A stretch of DNA of 64,000 nucleotides, from positions 1,375 through 65,374 of IMG/VR virus record IMGVR_UViG_3300027419_000032; one strand, 5' to 3'. Position numbers and translations under genes: made by a program. Source of the stretch: a virus (taxonomy: Duplodnaviria > Caudoviricetes). Positions 11,843 to 58,281 of the stretch are shown here, piece by piece (positions within the stretch are counted from its first letter, which is position 1; every line of letters begins with the position of its first letter). A model generated the notes under the pieces. That model was given only the letters and a program-made list of their open reading frames with translations, did no database searches and had not been told where the DNA came from.

Positions 11843-11880
11843 AATACAAGTAGATAAAGTAGTAACCGAAGCTTATAAAT
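11843..11880 (+). promoter_or_regulatory. 24-bp conserved box plus TATA box upstream of the methyltransferase operon
   Basis: AATACAAGTAGATAAAGTAGTAAC then TTATAAAT; identical 24-mer at 14289. Confidence 0.7.
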
Positions 11881-13034: not shown

Positions 13035-13835
13035 ATGAAAATACTTACTAGTGTTGCTATTGAGCCCACAAATCATTGTAATTTCGATTGTGTCATGTGC
13101 TATAGAGGAGAGCGGGAACGCGGCTACATGTCTTGGAAAACTTTTATAGAAGTAATGTATCAAATAAAGAAGATTCGAACTATAAATCTTATTGGTCTTA
13201 ACTTCGCGGGAGAGCCACTGTTGCATCCCAATTTCCTTGAAATGATAAATTATATTAATTCCCAAAAGGATTTTCGAATAGTTCTACAATCTCATTTTCC
13301 TTTTGTGGCCCTAAAGCGAGGGTATTCTATTGCGTTTACAACAAATGGATCTTTGTTGATGCCTGAAAAATTTGATGCATTAAATGGAAAAGTTGATAGA
13401 ATTCAAATATCAATAGATGGATCGAAGGAAGATACTGAAAAACAAAGAGTTGGATCTTCTTATGATACCATAAAAAGAAATGCTTTGTATGCAATTTTTC
13501 ATAAAATGCCTAACACTAAAATAGCCATACACGCAACTAAAACTACTCAAACCCAAGAAAGTCTTAAAAAGTTTAAGTCTGATTGGCAAAACGCCGATGA
13601 AGTAACTATAATAGATGCTCATAACGAAAATTTAGTAAGATCCAGCCGCCTCCCTCAGTTGTCTCTATACTGTCACGAATTAAATCATTATTTAGTAGTA
13701 TTGTGGAATGGGGATATAACTACATGTTGCGGAGACCTCGCCGGAAGAAATATTTGTGGGAACTTATTTAATGGCGGAATTTCTAAAGGAACAAAACCCG
13801 GGTCTCTTTGTAAAGAGTGTAATATTTATAGGTGA
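13035..13835 (+). CDS. radical SAM protein with C-terminal Fe-S (twitch/SPASM-like) domain
   Basis: CNFDCVMC (CxxxCxxC); GEPLLHP; C-terminal C...WNGDITTCC...CKEC. Confidence 0.9.
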   Translation: MKILTSVAIEPTNHCNFDCVMCYRGERERGYMSWKTFIEVMYQIKKIRTINLIGLNFAGEPLLHPNFLEMINYINSQKDFRIVLQSHFPFVALKRGYSIAFTTNGSLLMPEKFDALNGKVDRIQISIDGSKEDTEKQRVGSSYDTIKRNALYAIFHKMPNTKIAIHATKTTQTQESLKKFKSDWQNADEVTIIDAHNENLVRSSRLPQLSLYCHELNHYLVVLWNGDITTCCGDLAGRNICGNLFNGGISKGTKPGSLCKECNIYR

Positions 13836-14288: not shown

Positions 14289-14326
14289 AATACAAGTAGA
14301 TAAAGTAGTAACAATAACTTTATATA
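14289..14326 (+). promoter_or_regulatory. 24-bp conserved box plus TATA box upstream of the aromatic-X-N/D repeat gene
   Basis: AATACAAGTAGATAAAGTAGTAAC then TTTATATA. Confidence 0.7.
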
Positions 14327-14347: not shown

Positions 14348-14932
14348 ATGCCATGTGGAGGGTATTCTGACCATTGTGATATATCTGGATATTATATAGA
14401 TTATCTTCCACCGTTTTCATACCAGAATATGACTTGTTACGTTTGGAGCAATACCAACGAGTGTGGAGAATCTTATTTTGTTGATAATTCTGGATGTTAT
14501 AAGAACATAAGCCACAATAATTATTCTAATTATGCTAATATTCCTCATGATAATGTAGATTTCGACGACGGGGTGTTTGGAAATACTGTATTTCGCGACT
14601 ATGGGAATTACGCGAATATTAGGCACGAGAACGTTCCTGCCTGGAGTAATTATGTTTTTTCAACAGATTGGAATAATCATTCTGATCATGATAACAATTC
14701 CGGGAGTTCTTATGTACATACAGACTCAAATCCCCATACGGATTTGTGGCCTCATACCGATGATCCTCACGAAAACGATCCTTGGTATCATTGGCCTAAT
14801 TATGAAAACGTTCCATTTAATGATGGAGTATTTGGGAATATTCCATTCGAGAATGATCCTTGGTATCATTGGCCTAATTATGGGAATAATCCATTCTCTA
14901 ACTTTTGTAATCATACCGATACATATATTTAA
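14348..14932 (+). CDS. putative radical-SAM substrate/RiPP-like precursor with 35 [F/Y/W/H]-X-[N/D] motifs
   Basis: 35 of 51 aromatic/His residues are followed at +2 by N or D; internal duplications (ENDPWYHWPNY x2, DGVFGN x2); directly upstream of a SPASM enzyme. Confidence 0.75.
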   Translation: MPCGGYSDHCDISGYYIDYLPPFSYQNMTCYVWSNTNECGESYFVDNSGCYKNISHNNYSNYANIPHDNVDFDDGVFGNTVFRDYGNYANIRHENVPAWSNYVFSTDWNNHSDHDNNSGSSYVHTDSNPHTDLWPHTDDPHENDPWYHWPNYENVPFNDGVFGNIPFENDPWYHWPNYGNNPFSNFCNHTDTYI

Positions 14933-14946
14933 AGAGGAGACTAAAC

Positions 14947-16197
14947 TTGTCAACTATTTTAATTTACCCGAAAACAACTTGTGAAGTTGGTTGTGAATAT
15001 TGTTTTTCTAAACCAAATGAAAAGCAGGAATATGATAAAGAACAAATGATGATTGCCGTTAAAGAAGAAATTAGAAAAGATCGAATATTAAATAGTGGTC
15101 ACGACCCAACAGTTGTTTTACATGGAGGAGAAATATGTTTTCTCCCTTTGGTTGATTTAGAATATTTTTTAAAGGAACTTGAAGATATAGGAATAACTTG
15201 CGGTCTACAGACCTCTTTAATGGGTATGACGAGAGATCATGTAAGACTTTTTAAGAAATATAAAGTTAAAGTTGGAGTTTCAAGAGATGGGCCAAAAGAG
15301 CTAAACATAATGAGAGGTCCGAGAAATAAAGAGGAAAATTTATTATATCAAGAAGAATTAATTAATAATCTAAAAATATTAAAAGAAGAAGGATTGAGTT
15401 GGGGAAATATTTGTATTCTATCAAAGGTTAATGCTTCGAAAGAAAATCTTCCCATTTTACTGAACTGGATAAAAACCAATAAAATAGATGGAAGATTTAA
15501 CGCTATGTTTATTCCAACATTTAATGACAAGTTATCGAAATGGATGCTATCTTGTGATGAGTTAAAAAATGCCTGGATTGAAATATCTAAGGTTTCGATA
15601 GGGGAAAATATTTCAAATGTTGATCCTACGAGAGATTATATAGAATCTTTGTTGGGATACGGTACCGCGTCTTGTTCCACAGCCTCTCGGTGTGATTATG
15701 TTACAACAGTTTGCATTACAATATTAGGAAACGGAGAAATTAGTAGATGCGATCGGTGTCTCCAAGATGGAGTATATTTAAGATCTAAAGAAATAAAAAC
15801 TACTTCAAGAAGCGATATGTTAGAAAAAACCGAATGCGCTGGGTGTAAATATTTTAAGGTTTGTGGGGGAGGATGCCCATCGGAAGGAATTGGCGGGGAC
15901 TTCAGAAGAAAAACTTATTATTGTGATGCCATCTATGGTACGTTTGAATATTTGGAGAAGCAATTACGTGGCATGTTTCCCAATATAGTCCTTTCAATAG
16001 ATGATCCAAACTATAAGAGAAATGAACCATTTAACTGGTCAAGAAACATGCAAAGAGGGACGCGTGGTGGTAACATTTTATCTAAAGATCACAGTAAGAA
16101 TCCTAATAAACACGAAGTCTGTAAACAATCAGAATGTCGTGAAAGGGGCCATGTTAATACTCCTCACGGAGATCACATGAATCATATAAATAGGTGA
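14947..16197 (+). CDS. radical SAM/SPASM peptide-maturase-like enzyme (TTG start)
   Basis: CEVGCEYC; LHGGE; SPASM cysteines (C...C...GNGEISRCDRC...CAGCKYFKVCGGGCP...YYC); C-terminal tail GHVNTPHGDHMNHINR. Confidence 0.9.
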   Translation: MSTILIYPKTTCEVGCEYCFSKPNEKQEYDKEQMMIAVKEEIRKDRILNSGHDPTVVLHGGEICFLPLVDLEYFLKELEDIGITCGLQTSLMGMTRDHVRLFKKYKVKVGVSRDGPKELNIMRGPRNKEENLLYQEELINNLKILKEEGLSWGNICILSKVNASKENLPILLNWIKTNKIDGRFNAMFIPTFNDKLSKWMLSCDELKNAWIEISKVSIGENISNVDPTRDYIESLLGYGTASCSTASRCDYVTTVCITILGNGEISRCDRCLQDGVYLRSKEIKTTSRSDMLEKTECAGCKYFKVCGGGCPSEGIGGDFRRKTYYCDAIYGTFEYLEKQLRGMFPNIVLSIDDPNYKRNEPFNWSRNMQRGTRGGNILSKDHSKNPNKHEVCKQSECRERGHVNTPHGDHMNHINR

Positions 16198-16200
16198 GAA

Positions 16201-17007
16201 ATGTCTATTATTTTACCATCCAAGTGGAATTCTTGGATTTATGAATTTTCCAAAGAATCGCAAATGCTTTTTTCGCGAGCGGAATTTGAGATGACCGCCA
16301 TTGGGAAGAGAAAAGTGGGAACCATTCATCTAGATCCAAAGAATTTTGATATTCAATTAGAACAATTAACGGAGAGAGGGTTATATTTTGTCCCTATTTT
16401 TCGATCTAAAAGAAAAGAAGGATTTAATCATAATCTAAAAATCGAAGATAAAATATATAATGATACTATTATATATGGCGTAATTTCAACAAATTTAGAT
16501 TGCGCGAAAGAATTTAGAGATTTACACAAAACTTGCAAGACAGGACAAATGAATCCCTCACCAAATCACGAGAAAATTGGTGATCTATTAGGATATCCGT
16601 CTTGTTGTTCCCATTTTTTTAATGAAAATTTTAAGGACAACAAAGACCCCGTTTTTAGCGTGGCGGCCAATTCAGATTTAGAAGCCAAGAACTTTTGTTA
16701 TAATATTATAAATCCACCAAAAGAAAACGCCATTCATCTTAAGTATTTTGGGTTCAGAGTTATTCCTTGGGTTCCATGTTCTTACTACTGCATGGAAAGT
16801 CAAAAACATACTAAACAATGGATAGACCTAATGTATGAAATAGACCACGATAAAACAGAAAAATTATTAAAAATTTTATCAACTCCAGGAGAATTTAGTC
16901 TGGTGAACGGTCAAATGTTATGGAAATCTGATTTATTTATTGGAGTATGTGACGCTTTTAATGATTATTATATTGAGCCAAGAAAGATAGTAATCTCTGG
17001 AGAATAA
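16201..17007 (+). CDS. Cys-containing partner protein (LLGYPSCC motif, DUF483-like by recollection)
   Basis: LLGYPSCC and IPWVPCSYYC motifs; 3 bp downstream of the SPASM enzyme. Confidence 0.6.
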   Translation: MSIILPSKWNSWIYEFSKESQMLFSRAEFEMTAIGKRKVGTIHLDPKNFDIQLEQLTERGLYFVPIFRSKRKEGFNHNLKIEDKIYNDTIIYGVISTNLDCAKEFRDLHKTCKTGQMNPSPNHEKIGDLLGYPSCCSHFFNENFKDNKDPVFSVAANSDLEAKNFCYNIINPPKENAIHLKYFGFRVIPWVPCSYYCMESQKHTKQWIDLMYEIDHDKTEKLLKILSTPGEFSLVNGQMLWKSDLFIGVCDAFNDYYIEPRKIVISGE

Positions 17008-17822
17008 TGGCAGAAAGTAATATTACCGGAATTTTTACAATAAGAAACGCGATTGACGCAGGATATCCTTTTGTGGAATCTATTCTATCTGCACTTTCTT
17101 TTTGTGACGAAATTCTTGTAAATGATGGTGGATCGAATGATGGCACATTTCAATATCTTTGTAGGCTAAAAGAAAGTTATTCACAAATTAAAATATATAA
17201 AATTCCGGATAGAGGAAAAGCTAAATGGCAAGCGATTGATGATGTTCTAAACGTATTAATTAAGAAAGTGAAAACTGATTGGATTTTTGAACTTCAAGGG
17301 GACGAAATGTTTCATGAGAAAGATGTTTCTTCAATAAAAGATTTAATTAAAAATATAAATTGTTTAAAATATAATGGAGTGAGACATTCGCGTATAGATT
17401 TAACGTCGTGGGATACCAAAGTAAATAAACCTACATATAAAATGGGAACCATTAGACTGGTAAAGAACGTAGATAACCTTACTTCCGATTGGGGAGGGGA
17501 TCATTTTACAATAAATCATAATCCCTATCCTAGGGAAGGTTTTACTCTTCACAATGTACCGCCAGAATATGATGTTCAAAACTTAAATTTATACCATTTT
17601 TGTGATGTATTTCCTGGAAATGTCAGAATTAAAGCAAAAAGACATGCCGAACACCTCGCGAGCACCGCGCAAGATAGAATTGACGCATATAACTATAGAA
17701 AGAGCAATCATACTTCTATCACCTCAAGGAACTTATCTGGAAATAAGAAGGAATTTCCTTTGTTAATGCAGGGGCTTTATGGATATCAATATTATACTGT
17801 AAGGGAAGAATTATTTAAATGA
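17007..17822 (+). CDS. family 2 (GT-A) glycosyltransferase
   Basis: DEILVNDGGSNDGT; WIFELQGDE. Confidence 0.88.
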   Translation: MAESNITGIFTIRNAIDAGYPFVESILSALSFCDEILVNDGGSNDGTFQYLCRLKESYSQIKIYKIPDRGKAKWQAIDDVLNVLIKKVKTDWIFELQGDEMFHEKDVSSIKDLIKNINCLKYNGVRHSRIDLTSWDTKVNKPTYKMGTIRLVKNVDNLTSDWGGDHFTINHNPYPREGFTLHNVPPEYDVQNLNLYHFCDVFPGNVRIKAKRHAEHLASTAQDRIDAYNYRKSNHTSITSRNLSGNKKEFPLLMQGLYGYQYYTVREELFK

Positions 17823-18421
17823 AAATAGATCTTGGTAATTGTGAAACAGAAGTAAGTTATTTATATTGCGGAAGGCAAGAGTATTTTGAATTAGTATGCC
17901 CAAGACAGGGAAACGACAAAAATAAACAAGTAAGACACAACTTATTTGGAGTGTACACTACTCAATATAAAGAAGTCGCCGCGTCTCATGCTATAACGTT
18001 CGACATTAATGGTTTTGTAGAATTTGATAAATATGGATATGTTTATATATTAAATCCAGAAGATTTTATTCAAATAGATTCTTGGCAATTTATAAGTTAT
18101 GATCCAGTAAAACCAATTGCGTTTGAGGTTGTTAAGCCTATAGAATATTTACACAACATCCTAAATGGTGAATGGCAAGGAATAACTTCGCATGGAACAA
18201 AACGGTTAACATTAAAATTTAATTCGTCAAAAACTATTAAAACTGAAAGGGGCGATTACATGGTAAATGAGTTGAGCGATCCAAAAACTATTGCTAAAGA
18301 AATTTTACACAATGAAATAATAGAAATTATTAATAATTTTGACGCAGGTAAAATAGAACCTAGTGTTTTATGCGACATGTTTAGAAAACTTGATAAAAAT
18401 TGGGATGAGTTTATAAAATAA
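17819..18421 (+). CDS. hypothetical protein
   Basis: 200-aa ORF with 4-bp overlap to the glycosyltransferase. Confidence 0.7.
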   Translation: MKIDLGNCETEVSYLYCGRQEYFELVCPRQGNDKNKQVRHNLFGVYTTQYKEVAASHAITFDINGFVEFDKYGYVYILNPEDFIQIDSWQFISYDPVKPIAFEVVKPIEYLHNILNGEWQGITSHGTKRLTLKFNSSKTIKTERGDYMVNELSDPKTIAKEILHNEIIEIINNFDAGKIEPSVLCDMFRKLDKNWDEFIK

Positions 18422-49115: not shown

Positions 49116-52100
49116 ATGGCCTTTAATACCGATAAATATAATAATTCTTCTTTTAATCGCGACGGGGTGTTATATGTTACTTCAGCTTCCACGTCTAAAT
49201 GGAACAATGTAGCATATACTGAAGGGTTTTACTCCAATTTTGTTTATAATAATATTAATTATATAGAATTTTTAGATGGATTTGAATGGGATACTCTAGC
49301 CAGAACTGAAGAATTTTTTGATATTGTAAAATGGATCAACAGGGAATTTGTAGATAATTCTGAGATTATTCAATGGAATAATATTTCTTATCTTACTTCT
49401 CTTTCTGATTTTAAATGGGGCAATAAAAATTACTTAAGAGATTTAAGATTTAATCAAGAAAAATATAATAAATCTTCATTTAATCGTGGGACATATTATG
49501 TTTCTATTTCAGATATTGTTAAATGGAAAAACAGTATGTTCATTGAGGATTCTGATGTTCTTAAATGGACCAACAGAGTATATACCGATGACTATACTTC
49601 TATTGTTACATGGTTAAATCGGATGTTCGTGTTTCAAGATTCTAGTATTAAATGGAATAATAGGATGTTTACAGGGCTTGGTGTTTGGATCGAAGTAGCT
49701 CCGACATTAGGAGATGAAACAGAGATACTTTCCCTTGTAATCTTAGATGGCGAAATTTACGGTAGTACATATCCTACTGGAAAGTTATATAAGTGGAATG
49801 GCGTAAACGCCTGGACCGAAGTAGCTCCAACCTTAGGGGACGAAACAGAGATTCTCTCTTTAGTTGTTCTAAGCGGAGAGATTTATGGTAGTACGTATAA
49901 TAATGGAAAGTTATATAAATGGAACGGTTTGAATGCTTGGATAGAAGTAGCTCCAATGTTAAGCGAGGAGATAGGGGTCACAGATCTCATAATCTTAGAT
50001 GGCGAAATTTACGGTAGTACATATCCTAGTGGAAAGTTATATAAGTGGAATGGCGTAAACGCCTGGACCGAAGTAGCTCCAACCTTAGGGGACGAAACAG
50101 AGATTCTCTCTTTAGTTGTTCTAAGCGGAGAGATTTATGGTAGTACGTATACTGGAAAGTTATATAAGTGGAATGGCGTAAACGCCTGGACCGAAGTAGC
50201 TCCAACCTTAGGGGACGAAACAGAGATCCTCTCTTTAGTTGTTCTAAGCGGAGAGATTTATGGTAGTACGTATACTGGAAAGTTATATAAGTGGAATGGG
50301 TCTAGTTCGTGGACAGAAATAGATATTTACTTAGAAGGTGAAATTTATATTTCACATCTTATTGTTTTTAATGGAGAGATATATGGCGTTTCATATCCTA
50401 GTGGAAGGTTATACAAAAACAATATTTTTAATAATATTTTCCAATGGAACGGAGTTTATTATAATACATCTTCTAGTGTTTTAAAGTGGAATAATCAGAT
50501 GTTTTTATCTCAGTCTTCTAATGTCAAGTGGAATGAGGTTTGTTATGTTCCAGATCAAATTATTTTTACTTGGCTTAATGTTTCTGGGGTCGTATATCCT
50601 CTTATTGATTGTTTAAGTGTTAAAACTGTTCAAGGAGAATATATATTTCCAAATATAATAAGTGGGAATATATCATTTAAAGATGGATCTATTGGTGAGG
50701 CTAGTTTTGAGTTAGATAGATCTATCCCAGAAGATTCTCAGTGCGCTTTCTATCTTAAGGGGTCCACAAGAATGTTTGATGGGGTTTCGAGGCGTTGTAC
50801 AAGGAATTCTAATGGGACATACAAAGCTAATATTCAAGAATATAGTGAAATTTTAAAACCAGAAAACGAAAAGGGTGGAGTCTATCTAGTAAAGAACGAT
50901 TGGCATAATGTAGAATTACATAATCTAGTTTCTAGCTTGAAGCCCACGGAAAACGACGGAGAAATAGGTCTTCTTTATATGGCCTTTTCTGCTATTCCTG
51001 ATTCGTTTTTTAAGGAATACGATACAGATAATAATATATTTAAATTTGAATATATTGGAATTCCATATATTATAACGGAAATATTTGAAGATTCAAGTTT
51101 ACTTCCTCAACAAACTAGTTTAGAGTTTTTAAAAAATACCGTTTTAACTACGGGATTGATTTACGATGGCGTAGAAACTGAAATTTCTGTCAACAGTACG
51201 GTTAATTTTGGCTCTAGTGGATCTATTTACATAGATGATGAACAAATAACTTATACATCAAAAACCGCAACTCAATTCACTGGATGCGTTCGCGGAGCGG
51301 GAGGTACGACAAAATTAACTCATAGCGTTGGAACTATCATTAATCCAAAACAAAGAGCTTCCTGTTTATTAACTACAGCTCTCGCTAGTGGTGGATCAGA
51401 AACAACTTTATCGGTAAATAATACAACCAATTTCGATTCCAGTGGAATGGTTTTTATTGATGGGGAAATAATATCTTATACTTCTAAAACAGATACAAGT
51501 TTTAATGGATGTGTTAGAGCTATAAATAGTTGGACAAAAAAAGAATGTGCGGTTGGGTCGCTTGTAACTCATAATACTAATATTTCTGGGTGGTACCATG
51601 ATTCCGAGAATCGCTCTCTCTATATTAGATGTTCTGATGGTACATTCCCATATTATCATGTAATTTCTTCACCATATATTTGGGATTCTTCAGTTCCAAT
51701 TAGAATTGGTAACATCAGCAGTTCAATTACCCAATCCCCCGCAACAACAATCTATTCCGGAGATTCCGGGACAACAAAGATTCCAACAGCTCAACCTCCG
51801 GATGGTGGATGTTATCTTCGTATAACTGGCACCGGAACTGAGGGAGATATAATAATAACCGGAGTAGCTACAGATTCTAGTACGAGTGAAACTATAAGTG
51901 CATCAGACTTTGATGTTACTAATACCGCAATTAGCGCAAAAAAATGGATTTCAATATCAAATTTAAATATTGCTACTTGGGATTCTGTAGTAGTTCAATC
52001 TTCGACTCCAATTATAGTATATTGGGAAACAGCAAATGGGGATGTGCCATTTGATAATTTAGAAACTTTACTTACTGCTTTAGATTTAGAATATGAATTT

Positions 52101-53747
52101 GTTTTTAGAAATGGAATCTGTTACGTAGATATTTCCGATAAAATAGGAAGTGGAACCTCTAACTCTCCGGCTAATTATTATAGTGAGAAGTATAATATAG
52201 ATTCTATTTCAGAAATAGACAAAGCAGACGCTAGAAATATGATAAATGGAGTCATGTTCAGCGGTTATGGATCTGGTGCCGCAGGGGTAAAATCCGGAAG
52301 ACATATTAATATGGGCCGCGGCGGAAGATTTGTGCTCCTTGATGATTCTACAATTCATAGTCAAGCAGTTGCTGATAATTTTGTGGTTAAATATTTGAAT
52401 GAGCATTATTTACCGTCAAGAAGTATTAAATTTACTGCACCGTTATTTATTGGAGATGCGGTAGACCAACGAAAAATTGGTGATACTGCACATATTTCTA
52501 TTCCATCTGAATTTGTAGAACAAGATCTAAGGATTAAAGAAATTGCAATAAAACTAAAACCACTGTCCCAAACTTTAACTTTCGGTGATAGATTAATTTC
52601 TTATGATGATCAAATAAAAGCAATGAGAGCGGCTTCAGAAAAATATAGAAAACATCTTCAAGATGAAATTGAAGAATTTTCGTGGTCTTGGTCGGAGAAT
52701 GTGGATTCTTCTGCTGCGAGGACAAATACTTTTGAAATAACAAGTGACATTTTAAAGATACAAAAATTAGAATTAACATGTAATACAAGTTTTCACGTTA
52801 CCGATACAAGTTCTGGATCTGGAAGTGGTGGAGGAGGTGGAGGAGGCGGAGGAGGTTCTGAAGAAAATCCCGCAGGAACCATTTCATCTACTACGCATCA
52901 TCATCAGGTAGTTGGCGTAACGGGAGTCCCGAGCGCAACCATCCAGGTGAGTGCAAAAGGGCATACCCACACTATAGACCCAACTACCAGCGCACCATCA
53001 GAGACTTCTACGGTTGTGACTGGGGTTAATTCAGTCGCGATAACAACGACCAAAACCCCAACATGGGGTTGCTGCACTGCGATTGGGTGTGGAAAGCAGT
53101 GGCTTTCTAATTACGACGTTACCGTTACTGGTGGGGTTGGGACAGTTACGTCTACAAATGTATCTTCAGCGACACATACTCATTCTGTTTCTGGAACGAC
53201 TACTGGTGATGATAGTTATCAGTCTGTATCAACTTTTGACCATATACATCAAATAAATCTTCAAACATCGGATGCTGAAGCGGGATCAGCTTTATTCACT
53301 GCTCCCGATTATATTTCTCAGTTTACTTATAAAGATCAAGGCGGTATTTTAACAAATATTGTTACGGGTAGGCCTTATGGAGAGGGACAGGAAGATATTA
53401 TCTACCAGACTTATGTAGAGAATCCAGATTATAGATTCAAAGCTACGGATATCTATACTCTGTTTAGAGGCGGCGGCAATCCTGATTTAGATCCCGAGAT
53501 ATTGTTTACTATTAAATTAAGTGGACCAGGGATAATTAACGAGCAAGAGATTATGGGATCTCCTTTTCTTGTTAAAGTTTCCGATGATATAGGGAACGTG
53601 CTGATAGATAATCTTGTGAGGGAGAGCGGAACGTATACTGTTCATGTTAGCGTGGCCCATAATACAGATCCAACAGAGAAGGTTCAACTTAGATTTAGTA
53701 TGCAGATTGGGGGACAAATCTTTGTTGATACGATACTGAAAGAGTAA
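49116..53747 (+). CDS. large tail-tip (Tal/central fibre-like) protein with WxN repeats, six-blade propeller repeats and HxH fibre motifs
   Basis: 1543 aa after the TMP; hub-like region (NGVMFSGYG...RKIGDTAHI...LTFGD); HTHTID, HTHSVS, HIHQIN. Confidence 0.8.
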   Translation: MAFNTDKYNNSSFNRDGVLYVTSASTSKWNNVAYTEGFYSNFVYNNINYIEFLDGFEWDTLARTEEFFDIVKWINREFVDNSEIIQWNNISYLTSLSDFKWGNKNYLRDLRFNQEKYNKSSFNRGTYYVSISDIVKWKNSMFIEDSDVLKWTNRVYTDDYTSIVTWLNRMFVFQDSSIKWNNRMFTGLGVWIEVAPTLGDETEILSLVILDGEIYGSTYPTGKLYKWNGVNAWTEVAPTLGDETEILSLVVLSGEIYGSTYNNGKLYKWNGLNAWIEVAPMLSEEIGVTDLIILDGEIYGSTYPSGKLYKWNGVNAWTEVAPTLGDETEILSLVVLSGEIYGSTYTGKLYKWNGVNAWTEVAPTLGDETEILSLVVLSGEIYGSTYTGKLYKWNGSSSWTEIDIYLEGEIYISHLIVFNGEIYGVSYPSGRLYKNNIFNNIFQWNGVYYNTSSSVLKWNNQMFLSQSSNVKWNEVCYVPDQIIFTWLNVSGVVYPLIDCLSVKTVQGEYIFPNIISGNISFKDGSIGEASFELDRSIPEDSQCAFYLKGSTRMFDGVSRRCTRNSNGTYKANIQEYSEILKPENEKGGVYLVKNDWHNVELHNLVSSLKPTENDGEIGLLYMAFSAIPDSFFKEYDTDNNIFKFEYIGIPYIITEIFEDSSLLPQQTSLEFLKNTVLTTGLIYDGVETEISVNSTVNFGSSGSIYIDDEQITYTSKTATQFTGCVRGAGGTTKLTHSVGTIINPKQRASCLLTTALASGGSETTLSVNNTTNFDSSGMVFIDGEIISYTSKTDTSFNGCVRAINSWTKKECAVGSLVTHNTNISGWYHDSENRSLYIRCSDGTFPYYHVISSPYIWDSSVPIRIGNISSSITQSPATTIYSGDSGTTKIPTAQPPDGGCYLRITGTGTEGDIIITGVATDSSTSETISASDFDVTNTAISAKKWISISNLNIATWDSVVVQSSTPIIVYWETANGDVPFDNLETLLTALDLEYEFVFRNGICYVDISDKIGSGTSNSPANYYSEKYNIDSISEIDKADARNMINGVMFSGYGSGAAGVKSGRHINMGRGGRFVLLDDSTIHSQAVADNFVVKYLNEHYLPSRSIKFTAPLFIGDAVDQRKIGDTAHISIPSEFVEQDLRIKEIAIKLKPLSQTLTFGDRLISYDDQIKAMRAASEKYRKHLQDEIEEFSWSWSENVDSSAARTNTFEITSDILKIQKLELTCNTSFHVTDTSSGSGSGGGGGGGGGGSEENPAGTISSTTHHHQVVGVTGVPSATIQVSAKGHTHTIDPTTSAPSETSTVVTGVNSVAITTTKTPTWGCCTAIGCGKQWLSNYDVTVTGGVGTVTSTNVSSATHTHSVSGTTTGDDSYQSVSTFDHIHQINLQTSDAEAGSALFTAPDYISQFTYKDQGGILTNIVTGRPYGEGQEDIIYQTYVENPDYRFKATDIYTLFRGGGNPDLDPEILFTIKLSGPGIINEQEIMGSPFLVKVSDDIGNVLIDNLVRESGTYTVHVSVAHNTDPTEKVQLRFSMQIGGQIFVDTILKE
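49686..50420 (+). repeat. six 123-126-bp repeats (41-42 aa, beta-propeller blades)
   Basis: W(T/I)EVAPTLGDETEILSLVVLSGEIYGSTY..GKLYKWNG; blades 4 and 5 are near-identical in DNA. Confidence 0.9.
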
Positions 53748-53801: not shown

Positions 53802-54491
53802 ATGGTTAGACAGAAATTGAGTGGAGAGGAAAAGAAGTACAAGAAAAAACTATACGATATTGAATACAGAAAAAAAAATATAATTAGGCTTAAAGAACAA
53901 AAATTAATGTATACAAAAGATAATAAATACAACAAAAAAGAGTATGGTCGTAAATATAGAATAAACATTAAGAATAAGATGTTCGAGATTTTGGGGAGTA
54001 AATGTGCGATTTGTGGGGAGGATAATAGAATATTTGTAACTATTGATCATAAAAATAAGGATGGCGCAGAAAAACAAAAAAAATATGGCAGCGTCTTGAG
54101 CGAATACAGTAATTTAAAATCACAAGGATGGCCCATCGACAAAATAATATCAAATTATCAGGTTTTATGTTGGAATCATAATTGCGCAAAAAATCGTGGG
54201 TATTTTGATAAATCTCCGCTAGAACTAAATAGATATTCTCGCTATCGTCAGAAATTGTGGCGCGAGGCATTTAATTTTTTTGGTCCCTGTTATTGTGGTG
54301 AGTCTAATTTAAAATTTCTAACGATTGATCATATTCATAACGATGGAGCAGAGCGGAGAAGGAATGGAGAAAAACGCGCAGCCGAACTTTTATCTTATTT
54401 TCATAAACTCGGATGGCCCGAATCTATAAAAGAGACCTATCAACTTCTTTGTTACAATCATAATTTTGCGAAAGCATTGGCGGGGAGGTAG
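53802..54491 (+). CDS. tandem-HNH endonuclease
   Basis: CAICGE..FVTIDH...GWP...LCWNHN; CYCGE..FLTIDHI...GWPESIKETYQLLCYNHN. Confidence 0.85.
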   Translation: MVRQKLSGEEKKYKKKLYDIEYRKKNIIRLKEQKLMYTKDNKYNKKEYGRKYRINIKNKMFEILGSKCAICGEDNRIFVTIDHKNKDGAEKQKKYGSVLSEYSNLKSQGWPIDKIISNYQVLCWNHNCAKNRGYFDKSPLELNRYSRYRQKLWREAFNFFGPCYCGESNLKFLTIDHIHNDGAERRRNGEKRAAELLSYFHKLGWPESIKETYQLLCYNHNFAKALAGR

Positions 54492-54493
54492 TT

Positions 54494-54919
54494 ATGCCCA
54501 ATACCAATACCAATACCAATACCAATACCAATACCAATACCAATACCAATACCGATTTTCAAAACCAAAACCAAAACCAAAACCAAAACCAAATTGAGGT
54601 CGTTACACTCTCCACGGGCGAGACCTTAAATAAATGGTGCCTATCCCAATTTAATAATCTAACCGCAAACCAAGAAGTAATTTGGGACATCCTAAATATT
54701 GTTACTAAATTAGTTCGCCTAAATATTACCAAAGATGAAAACAACCATGTTACTGATGTCAAACTAGTATTTCCTCAAGTTTCTGAAGTTGTTACTTTGT
54801 TTGCTCTAAAGAACTTCATTGAACATCAATCTTTACGAGAAAACGACGATCTTTCGGCTGAAGCAACCTTAGAACTCCGTCGCAGGAGGCTTCAGAAATA
54901 CATGGAGAATAATCGATGA
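54494..54919 (+). CDS. hypothetical protein with (NT)9 and (QN)5 N-terminal repeats
   Basis: (AATACC)9 at 54500-54553; (CAAAAC)5 at 54560-54589. Confidence 0.7.
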   Translation: MPNTNTNTNTNTNTNTNTNTDFQNQNQNQNQNQIEVVTLSTGETLNKWCLSQFNNLTANQEVIWDILNIVTKLVRLNITKDENNHVTDVKLVFPQVSEVVTLFALKNFIEHQSLRENDDLSAEATLELRRRRLQKYMENNR

Positions 54920-56049
54920 CTACTAATACATTTTATTTAAATTCTTTGGAATTGAGTCCGGCTTGCGGTATTTATATTACAGATGCAGTTCCCTTTGACC
55001 CTTCGTCTTCATTTGAAACCATGTCTTTTTGGCATGGGACTACGGTAAAAATAACCGACATACAACCCAAGTCTACGAAAGTAACTTTTAAGGGCCATTG
55101 TAGCACAGAAGAGGCATTAAGATCTTTAGCTAAATACAATGTTACTAATTATAATTGGAATGACGATTCAGAAGATATTTATTTGATTAAGGATCTTTCA
55201 AGAAGGTGGAAGGTTTGTTCTTTAGAATTTAGTTATAATCATGATTATCCAGGGATGCCATTTCCTTTTGTTATGACTTTAATTCTTTCTGAGATTGGAT
55301 CGGAGGGATATGTTCAAACCTCTAAAACCGGATCTTCCGCTTCTTCACCTATTTCAGTAACATCTATTTTAAATACAGGCGATCAAATTACTCTTTATGA
55401 TTCTATTAAAATAACTGGCGGGTATTCTGGCGGATCTAATCTTATTTCTCCAAATGTAGAACAATATACAGTTGGATATTTTATTGATGTTGCTGACGTT
55501 TTATTGGATGGGGCCGAATACGAGTTTTATAACGATTATACGGCAAAACATACTTATATCGATTCTTTTATAGATTCCGATAAATTTACCAGAAACGTCG
55601 ATTCATCTACTAATGTTACTTTTTCTACCAATCATCTTGTTATTGCATCCAGCGGGTCCTTAGTATGTAAATTTCAGTTGAAACATCCTCTTTTAGAAGA
55701 TCCGGTTTTAACTATGACAATAACATCTCTTGTGGGGTCGCCGAAATTAGAGGTTTCTTCAGATAATGTTAATTGGTGGGAATGTGAAAAAAGTCTAGTT
55801 GCTGGAAGTTTGGTAGGTTATAATCTTACTAAAATGTCTGGGAATGGGAGCTTTTATTTTAGAATAACTACGAATTCTAGTTCTTCTTTAAATATTTATT
55901 ATATGAAATTAGTTTCTTGGCATAATTACAGTGGTCAAAGGTCTATCCCATACTTAAGAGCTAATAGTACGGAGGAAAGATTAGATTTAACTTTTTCTGC
56001 CGGGACATTAACATATGATATAAAGTATAGAGATAAATGGTCGGTATAA
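54916..56049 (+). CDS. putative distal tail (Dit-like) protein
   Basis: 377 aa, beta-rich; FYLNSLEL N-terminus; YDIKYRDKW C-terminus. Confidence 0.55.
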   Translation: MTTNTFYLNSLELSPACGIYITDAVPFDPSSSFETMSFWHGTTVKITDIQPKSTKVTFKGHCSTEEALRSLAKYNVTNYNWNDDSEDIYLIKDLSRRWKVCSLEFSYNHDYPGMPFPFVMTLILSEIGSEGYVQTSKTGSSASSPISVTSILNTGDQITLYDSIKITGGYSGGSNLISPNVEQYTVGYFIDVADVLLDGAEYEFYNDYTAKHTYIDSFIDSDKFTRNVDSSTNVTFSTNHLVIASSGSLVCKFQLKHPLLEDPVLTMTITSLVGSPKLEVSSDNVNWWECEKSLVAGSLVGYNLTKMSGNGSFYFRITTNSSSSLNIYYMKLVSWHNYSGQRSIPYLRANSTEERLDLTFSAGTLTYDIKYRDKWSV

Positions 56050-56080: not shown

Positions 56081-56113
56081 TATGGTATAGTGTTTTGTGG
56101 TTTAGGAGGGTTT

Positions 56114-56851
56114 ATGCCTATTGTTTCTACGGATATAAAAAGATACAAATCTAAATCTACAGCTTCCGCAGATGGAGAATCTGGTGGAGATGGATTGGGA
56201 GGATACCGTTCTTCGGATGAGATTATAACGGATACGGATGAGAATCTTTTTGATAATGTTTCCGCTGCCGAGTCTGAAGTTGGAGATACCGAATATAGGG
56301 CGTTTTTCATTAAAAATACCCATGCTACATTGTCGTTTGTTGCTGCTAAAGTATACATATCTCCAACAGGAACTCTCCCAATGTCCTTACTCACTACGCA
56401 ACTTGAGAATGGGGGATCGGAAACTACAGTTGACGTAGCGGACGCATCTGATTTTCCAACTTCTGGAGCTTTTTTTGTTGAAGATGAAGAGGTTACTTAT
56501 ACTGGGAAATCAGGGAATCAATTTACTGGATGTACTCGCGGAGCAAATGGGACTTCTAAAGTTCTTCATACTACGGCAAAGAGAGTGGAACATAATCAAG
56601 TAAGATTTTATGTCGAGGAGCCTAGTAATAAATCTACTGGTTATATTGCTACTATTGCCGATGAGAGTACATCTCCGGCAGGGTCTCCTACTTGGCTCAA
56701 TCCCTATACTTTTGCTACTGGAGCTTCTATTGGGACGCTCGCTCCCGGTGAATTTTATGGGGTTTGGGTTAGGAGAAAAATTCCTGTTGGGTGTAAAGCA
56801 AAAACTGGAATTTCATATGTCTTTGCCAGAAAGGGCGAAACTGCGGAGTGA
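56114..56851 (+). CDS. virion tail-associated protein
   Basis: AGGAGG RBS; NLFDNVSAAES..GDTEYRAFFIKN...YGVWVRR; shares a domain with the 49116 protein. Confidence 0.7.
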   Translation: MPIVSTDIKRYKSKSTASADGESGGDGLGGYRSSDEIITDTDENLFDNVSAAESEVGDTEYRAFFIKNTHATLSFVAAKVYISPTGTLPMSLLTTQLENGGSETTVDVADASDFPTSGAFFVEDEEVTYTGKSGNQFTGCTRGANGTSKVLHTTAKRVEHNQVRFYVEEPSNKSTGYIATIADESTSPAGSPTWLNPYTFATGASIGTLAPGEFYGVWVRRKIPVGCKAKTGISYVFARKGETAE

Positions 56852-56856
56852 GTTAG

Positions 56857-58281
56857 GTGACAAAAAACTGGTCGCGTTTTCCATTAGTAGAGCCTATTGG
56901 CGAAGATTTAGCTAATTTTTCTACTTATCGGTTGTATGAAAAATCCGCAATTGCTGGTTATGGTGTTTTAAGTGGCTGTGTTGTTACTCGGACCAGTACT
57001 ACGGCAGTTGCGGTATCAAGTGGAAATTTTACAGTTTCCGGTGTATCTAACACTTTTACTGGGGGAAACTTAACTGGTATTGTCGCTGCTTCATCTGGAT
57101 ATCATAGATATGATTTAGTTTATATTGATGCTGTTGATTCGACTTTAAAATTAGAATCTGGAGTAGAGGAAATTCCAGATAGTTCTATAGATTTTTTGGA
57201 GAATTACCATCCTCGCCCAGCAGAGCCTAATGATACTGATTGGATTGTATTAGCTGTTTTAAGAGTCACGGAAAATGGAATCGAGGATGCAGATTTTGGT
57301 ACGGTAGTTTATGCTCAAGATAGCATAGCGGATATGAGACTATCTCCAGCTTTTGCGGTAGATAATATAACCCTTCAAGTTATAGATGGTGTTGCATCGG
57401 TGAAGGCCGCAGCGGGCCACGCTTCTACACATAAAACTGGCGGATCGGATTCAATAAAGTTAGACGAGTTTGCTTCTCCCGAAGATAATACAAATCTTAA
57501 CGTTTCTGCACTTGCACACGGATTATGTCCAAAAATCCCTAATAATACAACTACATTTTTCAGAGGAGATGGAGCTTATGCGGCTCCGTCTGTTTCTACT
57601 CACGCTTCTACTCACGCTTCTGGACAATCTGACGCCATAAAGATTGATGATTTAGCCGCTGGAGACGATAACACTGATTTAAATGTGAGTACTACTAAAC
57701 ACGGATTATGCCCAAAACTTTCAAACTCTGCGACTCAGGCATTACTTGGAAATGGAACTTATGGAAATCCTGCTCCGGCTACTCATGCAACAAGTCATAA
57801 ATCAGGTGGATCAGATTCAATAAAACTAGATGAGTTGGCATCTCCAACCGATGTAACCACGCTGAATGTAACTACTTCTTTACACGGTCTTTGTCCAAAA
57901 GCTCCGGCTATTGTAACTCAATTTTTAAATGGTTTAAGCGGAGGTTGGTCGGTTCCAAATGTTTCTGTTTACGGTCCATACAGGATTGTTCACGATGGAG
58001 GTGCGACCCAGGCGATTTTAACTACTCCCGCTCTTTGTGAAATTGACGAAATTGTTGTAAAATGCCAGCAAGCAGGGCCCTCAAGAACGGTGAATGTTGG
58101 ATGGGCGGCTGACACAAATGCTTTAATGGCTGATAGTGAAGTTCCTCACACGTTAAATGGAACAACTTTTATTAGAAATCCTGTTGCCGAGATCGTGGCT
58201 GCTACAGCTTTAATTGCCACAATTGGGGGCAGCGGAGACGGAGAATGGGATATATGGTTAAAAATTTCGAGGTATGAATAA
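56857..58281 (+). CDS. tail fibre protein with three HASTH...HGLCPK repeats
   Basis: H(A/S)xxHxxGGSDxIKLD...LNV..xxHGLCPK x3. Confidence 0.75.
   Translation: MTKNWSRFPLVEPIGEDLANFSTYRLYEKSAIAGYGVLSGCVVTRTSTTAVAVSSGNFTVSGVSNTFTGGNLTGIVAASSGYHRYDLVYIDAVDSTLKLESGVEEIPDSSIDFLENYHPRPAEPNDTDWIVLAVLRVTENGIEDADFGTVVYAQDSIADMRLSPAFAVDNITLQVIDGVASVKAAAGHASTHKTGGSDSIKLDEFASPEDNTNLNVSALAHGLCPKIPNNTTTFFRGDGAYAAPSVSTHASTHASGQSDAIKIDDLAAGDDNTDLNVSTTKHGLCPKLSNSATQALLGNGTYGNPAPATHATSHKSGGSDSIKLDELASPTDVTTLNVTTSLHGLCPKAPAIVTQFLNGLSGGWSVPNVSVYGPYRIVHDGGATQAILTTPALCEIDEIVVKCQQAGPSRTVNVGWAADTNALMADSEVPHTLNGTTFIRNPVAEIVAATALIATIGGSGDGEWDIWLKISRYE

What the first reader, a model, noticed from the sequence alone, without database searches (positions are those of the whole stretch)
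14348..17007. Virus-encoded poly-cyclophane (triceptide-like) radical SAM system
Seen: the 194-aa ORF is built from 35 aromatic-X-(Asn/Asp) tripeptides, in order YSD, HCD, YID, YQN, WSN, FVD, YKN, HNN, YSN, YAN, HDN, FDD, FGN, FRD, YGN, YAN, HEN, WSN, WNN, HSD, HDN, HTD, HTD, HTD, HEN, WPN, YEN, FND, FGN, FEN, WPN, YGN, FSN, FCN, HTD. That covers 35 of its 51 F/Y/W/H residues. It has its own promoter and sits 14 bp upstream of a radical SAM/SPASM enzyme and a Cys-motif partner. Known: three-residue cyclophane-forming radical SAM/SPASM enzymes (XyeB/XncB, GrrM/OscB, FxsB types) cross-link an aromatic residue to the C-beta of the +2 residue; the xenorceptide core contains WIN and FGN. Inference: an archaeal virus encodes a maturase that staples up to ~35 rings, on all four aromatic types, into one polypeptide with no obvious leader. 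The product could be a rigid virion fibre, a protease-resistant decoy or a processed RiPP. I know of no described viral system like this.
Basis: partly seen in the sequence, partly recalled or inferred. Interest (0 to 1): 0.93.

Follow-up and report, generated by a model that had tools for sequence, protein, structure and literature searches.

The report
Phage repeat protein with radical-SAM maturase
A tailed virus from groundwater encodes a 194-residue protein built from 35 aromatic-x-Asn/Asp triplets next to a dedicated radical SAM enzyme and a four-cysteine partner. This three-gene set recurs in many phages, usually inside the tail genes, which suggests that a virus-particle protein is stapled by dozens of ring-forming cross-links; this has not been shown by experiment.

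Summary
ORF 14348-14932 has 35 [FYWH]-x-[ND] triplets; shuffles give 13.3 ± 2.7, with a maximum of 25. Among orthologues the aromatic and the N/D positions each keep their class in 97% of cells. The middle residue is identical in only 56%, and dN/dS is 0.05-0.19.

The order repeat protein, radical SAM/SPASM enzyme, DUF483-like four-Cys protein is kept in every related locus with enough DNA. It also extends to cultured Thermus phages Cumys and phiMa at 28% enzyme identity. A GT2 gene is adjacent in about half of the loci.

The enzyme belongs to no curated family. Its best scores are DynA 82 bits, anSME 69 and AmcB 67, all far below the cut-offs. It sits in the anSME-like clade that also holds the cyclophane synthases.

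In three related viral lineages and in Cumys the cassette lies inside the tail-tip/baseplate module. There is no leader, protease or exporter.

My best reading is a protein-scale, triceptide-like poly-cyclophane modification of a tail-associated protein. The chemistry is inferred.

"Archaeal virus" is not shown. A 2024 preprint had already noted the module without recognising the motif. This scan has also found the same module before on other DNA, in at least 8 notes with the same reading.

The parts
14289..14312 (+). 24-nt upstream box, shared with 11843-11866 in front of the methyltransferase operon
   Evidence: Direct repeat family D2. It lies 36-59 nt before the ATG of the repeat-protein gene.
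14319..14326 (+). TATA-like TTTATATA box 29 nt before the ATG, with no Shine-Dalgarno site; a possible promoter for a transcript with little or no leader
   Evidence: This is a consensus match only and was not tested.
14348..14932 (+). Repeat ('precursor') protein of 194 aa with 35 aromatic-x-Asn/Asp triplets. Cys10, Cys30, Cys50 and Cys187 are conserved, as is a C-terminal F-x-N-F-C-N-H-T-D motif. AlphaFold2 predicts no fold.
14770..14895 (+). Internal tandem duplication (78-nt period, 85% identical) inside the repeat-protein gene
   Evidence: family D1.
14933..14939 (+). AGAGGAG Shine-Dalgarno site for the radical SAM gene
14947..16197 (+). Radical SAM/SPASM enzyme of 416 aa, TTG start. It has the CX3CX2C cluster motif at C12/C16/C19 and SPASM cysteines C243, C249, C268, C297, C300, C306, C310 and C326. 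It has no N-terminal leader-recognition (RRE) domain.
16132..16194 (+). C-terminal tail of the enzyme carrying four His-x-Asn/Asp triplets. Substrate-like tails of this kind occur across the enzyme family.
16201..17007 (+). DUF483-like partner of 268 aa with four invariant cysteines: C135 and C136 (in LGYPxCC), C193 and C197 (in PCSxxC)
17007..17822 (+). Family 2 glycosyltransferase, adjacent to the trio in about half of the related loci, on either side
17819..18421 (+). 200-aa ORF of unknown function that travels with the cassette in close relatives and in L032

Best explanation
Genes 14348-17007 form a conserved phage maturation cassette. The 194-aa protein is an unfolded polypeptide whose functional unit is the triplet aromatic (F/Y/W/H) - any residue - Asn/Asp. 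The adjacent anSME-like radical SAM/SPASM enzyme has no leader-recognition domain and most likely recognises the triplets directly. I propose that it abstracts the C-beta hydrogen of the Asn/Asp and joins that carbon to the ring two residues upstream. This is the reaction of triceptide (three-residue cyclophane) synthases, repeated up to about 35 times on one chain. The DUF483-like four-Cys protein is an obligatory partner, probably metal-binding, whose exact role is unknown. The GT2 may add sugars. The product probably stays a protein and is a tail-associated component of the virus particle or a helper in its assembly, rather than a cleaved and exported peptide. Shown here: the motif statistics and their selection, the conserved gene trio, the enzyme class, and the position of the cassette in the tail module of relatives. 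Inferred: the cross-link chemistry, the number of rings, the role of the partner and the virion location.
For: The motif is real and selected. There are 35 triplets against 13.3 +/- 2.7 in shuffles. An unbiased residue-pair scan over 12 non-redundant family members puts H.D (z 15), F.N (z 15), H.N (z 10.5) and W.N (z 7) on top. Among 8 orthologues the aromatic class is kept in 97% of cells and the N/D class in 97%. There are 43 N<->D swaps and 14 aromatic swaps, including H<->Y. The middle residue is identical in only 56%, against 72% at other positions. That pattern fits a ring plus C-beta chemistry and does not fit metal binding. Co-occurrence is strict. Every locus that has DNA upstream of an enzyme homologue of 39-86% identity carries a motif-rich ORF directly 5' of it, and every locus with downstream DNA carries the DUF483-like gene. 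The pattern continues at 34% identity in L047 (101 motifs in 522 aa) and L053 (41 motifs in 169 aa). It continues at 28% in Thermus phage Cumys, where gp13 has 61 motifs. Natural fusions link the parts: rSAM-DUF483 (for example P0013, P0055, P0087) and rSAM with a 30-motif tail (P0125). On enzyme class, the protein has the CX3CX2C motif plus a full SPASM cysteine set. Cyclophane/cross-link maturases (DynA, AmcB, YhhB, DarW, GrrM/OscB, FxsB, DarE, XyeB) are among the best NCBIfam matches. Known chemistry covers W-x-N/D, F-x-N, Y-x-D and H-x-X rings (PMC11002830; PMC11499958). AlphaFold2 sees no fold in the repeat protein (pLDDT 32.7). For a structural role: in L010, L014 and L034 the cassette sits between homologues of window genes 49116-53747 (the gene after the tape measure) and 54916-56049, 56090-56851 and 56857-58281. 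In Cumys it follows the baseplate and tail-collar-fibre genes. No protease or transporter was recognised among the cassette neighbours that were scanned.
Against: There is no chemical evidence of any kind. The enzyme passes no curated family cut-off: best scores are 82 bits against 450 for DynA and 58 against 445 for YhhB. With a family profile its best solved relative is the anaerobic sulfatase maturase (144 bits, end to end), ahead of the triceptide synthase ChlB (92 bits, N-terminal half only). Sequence alone therefore does not place it among cyclophane synthases. His-x-Asp, the commonest triplet in distant relatives, has no characterised cyclophane precedent in the papers I read. Four conserved cysteines of the repeat protein are unexplained and could be the true targets. 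In this window the cassette lies about 35 kb from the tail genes, unlike in relatives. Some relatives (L046, L050, phiLo) have the enzyme and partner but no separate repeat protein within the DNA seen.
Confidence: 0.55

Rival explanations
1. The enzyme does modify the repeat protein, but with other radical chemistry. Options are C-N or C-O links from His or Tyr (as in DynA or DarE), oxidation or hydroxylation of the Asn/Asp C-beta, epimerisation, or thioethers from the four conserved cysteines.
For: DynA is the best-scoring family model and anSME, a C-beta oxidase, is the best solved relative. Cys10, Cys30, Cys50 and Cys187 are conserved across the repeat-protein family. PapB-type thioether maturases match 61 of the 102 relatives.
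Against: Selection acts jointly on the aromatic residue and on N/D two residues later, and all four aromatic types are interchangeable. That points to a bond between these two side chains. Four cysteines cannot explain 30-100 repeated triplets.
Confidence: 0.2
2. It is a classical RiPP. The 194-aa protein is a multi-core precursor that is cut into small cyclophane peptides, which are released at lysis as antimicrobials or decoys.
For: The grammar is the same as in triceptide precursors. The protein is predicted to be unfolded. The variable, duplicating middle region resembles multi-core precursors.
Against: No leader without motifs, protease or exporter was recognised among the cassette genes that were scanned. 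Distant homologues carry an N-terminal triple-repeat domain and reach 343-522 aa. The cassette sits inside tail modules.
Confidence: 0.1
3. The rSAM/DUF483 pair acts on something else, for example DNA as the Thermus-phage preprint guessed. The repeat protein would then be an unrelated His/Asp-rich metal-binding or structural protein.
For: The preprint 10.1101/2024.08.14.607894 reports homologues next to deazapurine DNA-modification genes in cyanobacteria and DUF483-methyltransferase fusions. Such fusions are also seen in the Atlas clusters and in phiLo. His-x-Asp is a typical metal-ligand pair.
Against: The repeat ORF is directly adjacent to the enzyme across 28-86% enzyme identity, and the enzyme is fused to a repeat tail in P0125. 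His is exchangeable with Tyr/Phe/Trp and Asp with Asn, which metal ligands would not tolerate. SPASM enzymes of this clade are protein or peptide modifiers.
Confidence: 0.07
4. The enzyme is a true anaerobic sulfatase maturase that makes formylglycine in a sulfatase.
For: anSME is the second-best NCBIfam match and the best solved relative. One distant locus (L050) has a sulfatase-superfamily gene 2 kb away.
Against: The score is 69 bits against a cut-off of 349. No sulfatase-family gene is present in this record or in four relatives, two of them complete genomes of 145 and 148 kb. The L050 protein shows no C/S-x-P/A-x-R motif.
Confidence: 0.03

Closest known systems
Triceptide systems: three-residue cyclophane-forming radical SAM/SPASM enzymes (XncB/XyeB, OscB/GrrM, MscB/FxsB, YxdB, HaaB, YhhB, HtkB, ChlB) with their precursors
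   Same: A SPASM radical SAM enzyme is encoded next to a substrate built from aromatic-X-X motifs. The characterised rings include Trp-x-Asn/Asp, Phe-x-Asn, Tyr-x-Asp and His-x-Ala/Arg/Lys (PMC11002830, PMC11499958). Several of these families are among the best HMM matches.
   Different: The enzyme fails every curated cut-off. The substrate is a 180-520-aa protein with 30-100 motifs and no motif-free leader. No protease or exporter is present. An obligatory DUF483 partner is present. The system is carried by viruses and sits in tail modules. The enzyme has its own motif-bearing tail.
'rSAM module' of Thermus phages Cumys and phiMa (bioRxiv 10.1101/2024.08.14.607894)
   Same: It has the same three genes in the same order: unknown protein, rSAM, DUF483 protein. 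The enzyme is 28% identical over 96% of its length. The upstream protein gp13 carries 61 His-x-Asp triplets.
   Different: The preprint did not note the repeats and guessed at DNA modification. The Thermus protein is almost purely His-x-Asp and has an N-terminal triple-repeat domain that the window's protein lacks. The window's protein uses all four aromatic types, mostly with Asn.
Anaerobic sulfatase maturase (anSME, TIGR03942; PDB 4K36)
   Same: It is the closest solved structure by profile (144 bits, end to end). It has two auxiliary clusters and no leader-recognition domain, acts on a protein substrate and abstracts a C-beta hydrogen.
   Different: The score is 69 bits against a cut-off of 349. 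No sulfatase gene is present in the virus or its complete relatives. The conserved neighbour is the repeat protein.
DynA and DarE (dynobactin and darobactin maturases)
   Same: DynA is the best-scoring NCBIfam model (82 bits, full length). From my own knowledge, these enzymes cross-link aromatic side chains to C-beta positions in leader-dependent peptides.
   Different: The scores are far below the cut-offs of 450 and 650. Those substrates are short peptides that end up as 7-10-residue antibiotics made by bacteria.
His-Xaa-Ser system (HxsA repeat protein with HxsB and HxsC radical SAM enzymes; uncharacterised)
   Same: A repeat protein with a His-x-small-residue grammar is paired with SPASM-type radical SAM enzymes.
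   Different: The HxsB model scores only 25.9 bits against a cut-off of 370. The third residue, the partners and the context all differ.

Membership tests
Triceptide / 3-CyFE system | Radical SAM core (CX3CX2C) plus a SPASM auxiliary-cluster domain | tested here: met
   Pfam Radical_SAM scores 40 bits, above its cut-off. The SPASM domain model scores 24.7 bits against 27. C12/C16/C19 and the SPASM cysteines are invariant or nearly so in 40 and in 102 relatives.
Triceptide / 3-CyFE system | Adjacent substrate gene with conserved aromatic-X-X motifs | tested here: met
   35 triplets in the window's protein. The same is found in every relative with upstream DNA. Selection acts on positions 1 and 3.
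Triceptide / 3-CyFE system | Enzyme reaches the curated score of a characterised 3-CyFE family (XyeB, GrrM/OscB, FxsB, YhhB, AmcB) | tested here: not met
   Scores are 23.6, 43.4, 39.2, 58.3 and 67 bits against cut-offs of 450, 310, 370, 445 and 425. Among 102 nearest relatives the best match to any family is E = 1.9e-33 (DynA), far from what the curated cut-offs imply; their bit scores were not listed.
Triceptide / 3-CyFE system | Aromatic carbon to C-beta bond between residues i and i+2 (-2 Da per ring) | not testable with these tools
   Needs mass spectrometry and NMR of the co-expressed proteins.
RiPP in the strict sense | Leader or follower peptide removed by a protease, with the product exported | tested here: not met
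   There is no motif-free leader. No protease or transporter was recognised among the cassette neighbours that were scanned. Absence from the genes seen does not prove absence.
Anaerobic sulfatase maturase (TIGR03942) | Curated score, and a sulfatase target with a C/S-x-P/A-x-R motif | tested here: not met
   69.3 bits against 349.45. No PF00884 match in G000-G004, two of which are complete genomes.
DynA / DarE maturases | Curated score of NF041298 or NF038005 | tested here: not met
   82.2 bits against 450 and 37.5 against 650.
Pfam DUF483 (PF04467), for ORF 16201-17007 | Score at or above the gathering threshold of 25 bits | tested here: inconclusive
   24.9 bits, E = 2.2e-5. The precomputed Pfam annotation lists PF04467 for this protein and its orthologues. 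Atlas neighbours carry DUF483.
Thermus phage Cumys/phiMa rSAM module | Gene order unknown protein - rSAM - DUF483 protein in a phage, with homologous enzymes | tested here: met
   tblastn gives 28% identity over 96% of the enzyme, E = 4e-23. The annotation and order are. gp13 carries 61 motifs.

The most novel reading that the evidence does not exclude
Tailed viruses harden or functionalise a tail-associated protein with tens to about a hundred radical-SAM-installed aromatic-to-C-beta rings. That would be a protein-scale poly-cyclophane material rather than a small peptide. It is made by a new anSME-like enzyme clade that works without a leader, needs a DUF483 four-Cys partner of a fold with no clear solved relative, and carries a substrate-like tail that may be self-modified. 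It would be the first enzymatic side-chain macrocyclisation of a virion protein.
Probability: 0.35. Interest if true: 0.9.

Novelty: new variant of a known kind. Interest (0 to 1): 0.8.

Why it matters
Radical SAM cyclophane formation is so far known only from small bacterial peptide natural products. Here the same grammar covers more than half of whole proteins and sits in the tail gene modules of many phages, including cultured Thermus phages in which it can be tested directly. If the reading holds, it would add a new kind of post-translational chemistry to virus particles. It would give a function to the DUF483 family and to a large uncharacterised radical SAM clade. It would also provide leader-independent enzymes that install many rings on one chain, which is of interest for peptide and protein engineering. 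If the chemistry turns out to be different, the strict three-gene association still marks an unknown protein modification that is widespread in viruses.

Tried and rejected
- Foldseek and VIA-align searches with the confident partner model (pLDDT 88) gave only weak matches: 2GUK at Z 7.4 and NleE at Z 5.7. No function follows from these.
- The Atlas search with the N-terminal triple-repeat domain of L047 gave nothing.
- Pfam, NCBIfam and PHROGs gave nothing for the repeat protein.
- Pfam gave nothing for nine of ten cassette neighbours in relatives.
- The host question stayed open. PCNA, MCM and sigma-70 models found nothing in this record or in four relatives. 'Relatives' cannot be drawn for a virus record. 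There are no tRNA genes. tblastn of a large structural ORF against GenBank phages found nothing.
- No RNA holder was listed among the sequencing runs. The two DNA holders are groundwater metagenomes that may be the source of this DNA.
- The search for related loci with the 40-sequence enzyme alignment failed for lack of conserved stretches. A 7-sequence alignment worked instead.
- The idea that the middle residue (often Ser or Thr after His) is the target was rejected, because it is the least conserved position.
- The beta-solenoid explanation of the motif was rejected as unsupported, because AlphaFold2 predicts no fold.
Full report
**What is there.** The window is an IMG/VR virus record of 65,374 bases, estimated 45% complete. 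It carries a tape-measure protein (PhageMin_Tail), HNH and NUMOD3 endonucleases and a metacaspase. Close relatives are complete genomes of 145 and 148 kb with terminal repeats. ORF 14348-14932 (+) encodes 194 aa.

In 20,000 shuffles the mean was 13.3, sd 2.7 and maximum 25. The aromatic-to-N/D excess exists only at offset +2, with 35 against 6-18 at other offsets. No other ORF in the window exceeds a third of this density. The frame is real, with dN/dS of 0.05-0.19 against four orthologues. A 78-nt internal duplication shows that the gene grows by adding repeats.

**The triplet is the unit of selection.** In an alignment of 8 orthologues (62-80% identity) the first position stays aromatic in 97% of cells and the third stays N or D in 97%. 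There are 43 N<->D swaps and 14 aromatic swaps, among them H-C-D to Y-C-N and H-E-N to Y-L-N. The middle residue is identical in only 56% of cells, below the 72% seen at non-motif positions.

An unbiased residue-pair scan over 12 non-redundant family members ranks H.D, F.N, H.N and W.N first, with z of 15, 15, 10.5 and 7. One member (L035) uses His-x-Glu. His is interchangeable with Tyr/Phe/Trp, and Asp with Asn. That argues against metal binding and for a chemistry that needs a ring and a C-beta two residues away.

AlphaFold2 with 18 family sequences gives pLDDT 32.7 and no fold, so the pattern is not explained by a predicted solenoid. The family keeps four cysteines (10, 30, 50, 187) and a C-terminal F-x-N-F-C-N-H-T-D motif. 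These are unexplained.

**The neighbours.** The gene at 14947-16197 follows 14 nt downstream with an AGAGGAG ribosome-binding site. It is a radical SAM/SPASM enzyme with CX3CX2C at residues 12-19. The full SPASM cysteine set is invariant or nearly so in 102 relatives.

Its best NCBIfam matches are DynA (82 bits), anSME (69), AmcB (67), TIGR04083 (63) and YhhB (58). All are far below their cut-offs of 300-450 bits. Among its 102 nearest representatives from 1.8 billion proteins, the best match to any curated family is only E = 1.9e-33. It is therefore an uncharacterised clade.

With the family profile the best solved relative is the anaerobic sulfatase maturase (144 bits, end to end). The triceptide synthase ChlB follows at 92 bits over the N-terminal half only. 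That is not a refutation. Cyclophane synthases are classed within the same sulfatase-maturase-like subfamily (PMC11002830). No sulfatase gene exists in this record or in four relatives, two of them complete.

ORF 16201-17007 is DUF483-like (24.9 bits against a threshold of 25). It has four invariant cysteines and a confident model (pLDDT 88). No convincing solved relative was found; the best matches are 2GUK at Z 7.4 and NleE at Z 5.7. Its Atlas neighbours are mostly viral, and some are fused to methyltransferases.

**Conservation of the cassette.** Orthologues of the repeat protein lie in the same gene trio. I scanned viral, genome and metagenome collections with an enzyme alignment and obtained loci at 39-86% enzyme identity.

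- Every locus with upstream DNA has a motif-rich ORF directly 5' of the enzyme, with 13-51 triplets in complete ORFs.
- Every locus with downstream DNA has the DUF483-like gene.
- A GT2 gene is adjacent in about half of the loci, on either side.

The pattern holds further out. L047 (34% identity) has a 522-aa protein with 101 triplets. L053 has 41 triplets in a 169-aa fragment. P0125 is an enzyme fused to a 30-triplet tail. Several enzymes are fused to DUF483.

Many enzymes of the clade, including this one (H-V-N, H-G-D, H-M-N, H-I-N), end in a triplet-bearing tail. Some loci (L046, L050, phiLo) show only such a tail and no separate repeat protein.

By contrast, the two methyltransferases, the second radical SAM gene and the zinc-finger ORF upstream in the window are not conserved with the cassette. 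They do share a 24-nt upstream box with it.

**Link to cultured phages and to the tail.** tblastn against GenBank phages finds Thermus phages Cumys, phiMa and phiLo. In Cumys the gene order is baseplate wedge, baseplate protein, tail collar fibre, a small ORF, gp13, the rSAM protein, then the DUF483 protein. gp13 has a triple N-terminal repeat, which L047 shares, followed by 61 His-x-Asp triplets.

The preprint 10.1101/2024.08.14.607894 noted this 'rSAM module' in phages and prophages and guessed at DNA modification. It did not mention the repeats.

In L010, L014 and L034 the cassette lies between two sets of homologues of window genes. On one side is 49116-53747, the large gene after the tape measure. 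On the other are 54916-56049, 56090-56851 and 56857-58281. This places it inside the tail-tip/baseplate module.

**Mechanism proposed.** Characterised enzymes make Trp-C-beta(Asn/Asp), Phe-C-beta(Asn), Tyr-C-beta(Asp) and His-C-beta(Ala/Arg/Lys) rings between residues i and i+2. The simplest reading is that the enzyme installs such rings at many or all of the triplets, which make up 54% of the residues here.

The enzyme would work without a leader, as anSME does on its protein substrate. The DUF483 protein would act as a metal-binding helper, and glycosylation would be an optional extra step. The size of the repeat proteins, the lack of a leader, protease or exporter, and the position in tail modules favour a protein product of the virus particle over a small secreted peptide. 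None of the chemistry is shown.

**Host.** 'Archaeal virus' is not established. First genes of operons lack Shine-Dalgarno sites while internal genes have them. The repeat-protein gene has a TATA-like box 29 nt before its ATG. This is compatible with archaeal-style leaderless transcripts but proves nothing. PCNA, MCM and sigma-70 searches were blank. The DNA comes from groundwater metagenomes.

**Earlier notes of this scan.** After I had reached this reading, a word search showed at least eight earlier reports on other genomes. They describe the same module: a His/aromatic-x-Asp/Asn repeat protein, a radical SAM/SPASM enzyme and DUF483, often in tail-fibre operons, with the same interpretation. 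They are AI notes and not independent evidence.

This instance differs in four ways. It uses all four aromatic types, mostly with Asn. It lacks an N-terminal fibre-type domain. It stands beside a GT2. It is displaced from the tail module.

**Verdict.** This is a new variant of the triceptide kind, carried by viruses and applied at protein scale. The chemistry is unproven, and cultured Thermus phages offer an immediate experimental route.

Noticed in passing
window 11843-11866 and 14289-14312: An identical 24-nt box precedes both the methyltransferase operon (start 11906) and the repeat-protein operon (start 14348). This suggests shared regulation, although the upstream operon is not conserved with the cassette in relatives.
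   Followed up: partly
window 13035-13835: A second, shorter radical SAM gene of 266 aa. Its best matches are the tungsten-cofactor oxidoreductase maturase (83 bits against 380) and a viperin-like model (51 bits). Only remnants of it are seen in three relatives, so it is not part of the core cassette.
   Followed up: partly
window 53802-54919 versus L010, L014 and L034: In relatives, the slot between the homologue of the 1543-aa post-tape-measure gene and the homologue of 54916-56049 holds the cassette. In this window that slot holds two small ORFs of 229 and 141 aa, and the cassette lies about 35 kb away. The cassette therefore behaves as a movable unit.
   Followed up: partly
L047:439-723 and L048 (Thermus phage Cumys):2428-2712: An N-terminal domain made of three repeats of about 30 aa (R-P-G-S-x-W-V-E-G ... 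L-x-Y-x-D) precedes the triplet region in distant homologues. The two copies are 42% identical, and no Pfam, Atlas or PHROG match was found. It may be the part that attaches the protein to the tail.
   Followed up: partly
L051:6926-8722: A 598-aa protein combines a DUF483-like N-terminal half with a C-terminal half that carries an H-E-x-x-H motif. It stands beside an enzyme fused to 30 triplets and a GT9 gene, on a contig that also encodes a TrwC relaxase.
   Followed up: no
L035:117-647: This family member uses His-x-Glu repeats (Y-P-H-S-E-T units) in place of His-x-Asp/Asn. The third position therefore tolerates Glu in one lineage.
   Followed up: no
window, gene starts from 10.5 to 64 kb: Genes that follow intergenic gaps mostly lack a Shine-Dalgarno site, while genes inside operons mostly have one. 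Several first genes have TTTAWATA boxes 29-36 nt before the start. This is compatible with leaderless first cistrons.
   Followed up: partly
L050:7089-7742: A 217-aa sulfatase-superfamily protein lies 2 kb downstream of a distant enzyme homologue (34% identity). It has no C/S-x-P/A-x-R motif.
   Followed up: partly
L049 (Thermus phage phiLo):2282-3411: Two IS605 OrfB transposase fragments lie directly upstream of the phiLo enzyme, where a repeat-protein gene would be expected. The partner in phiLo is annotated as a methyltransferase and carries a weak DUF483 match.
   Followed up: no
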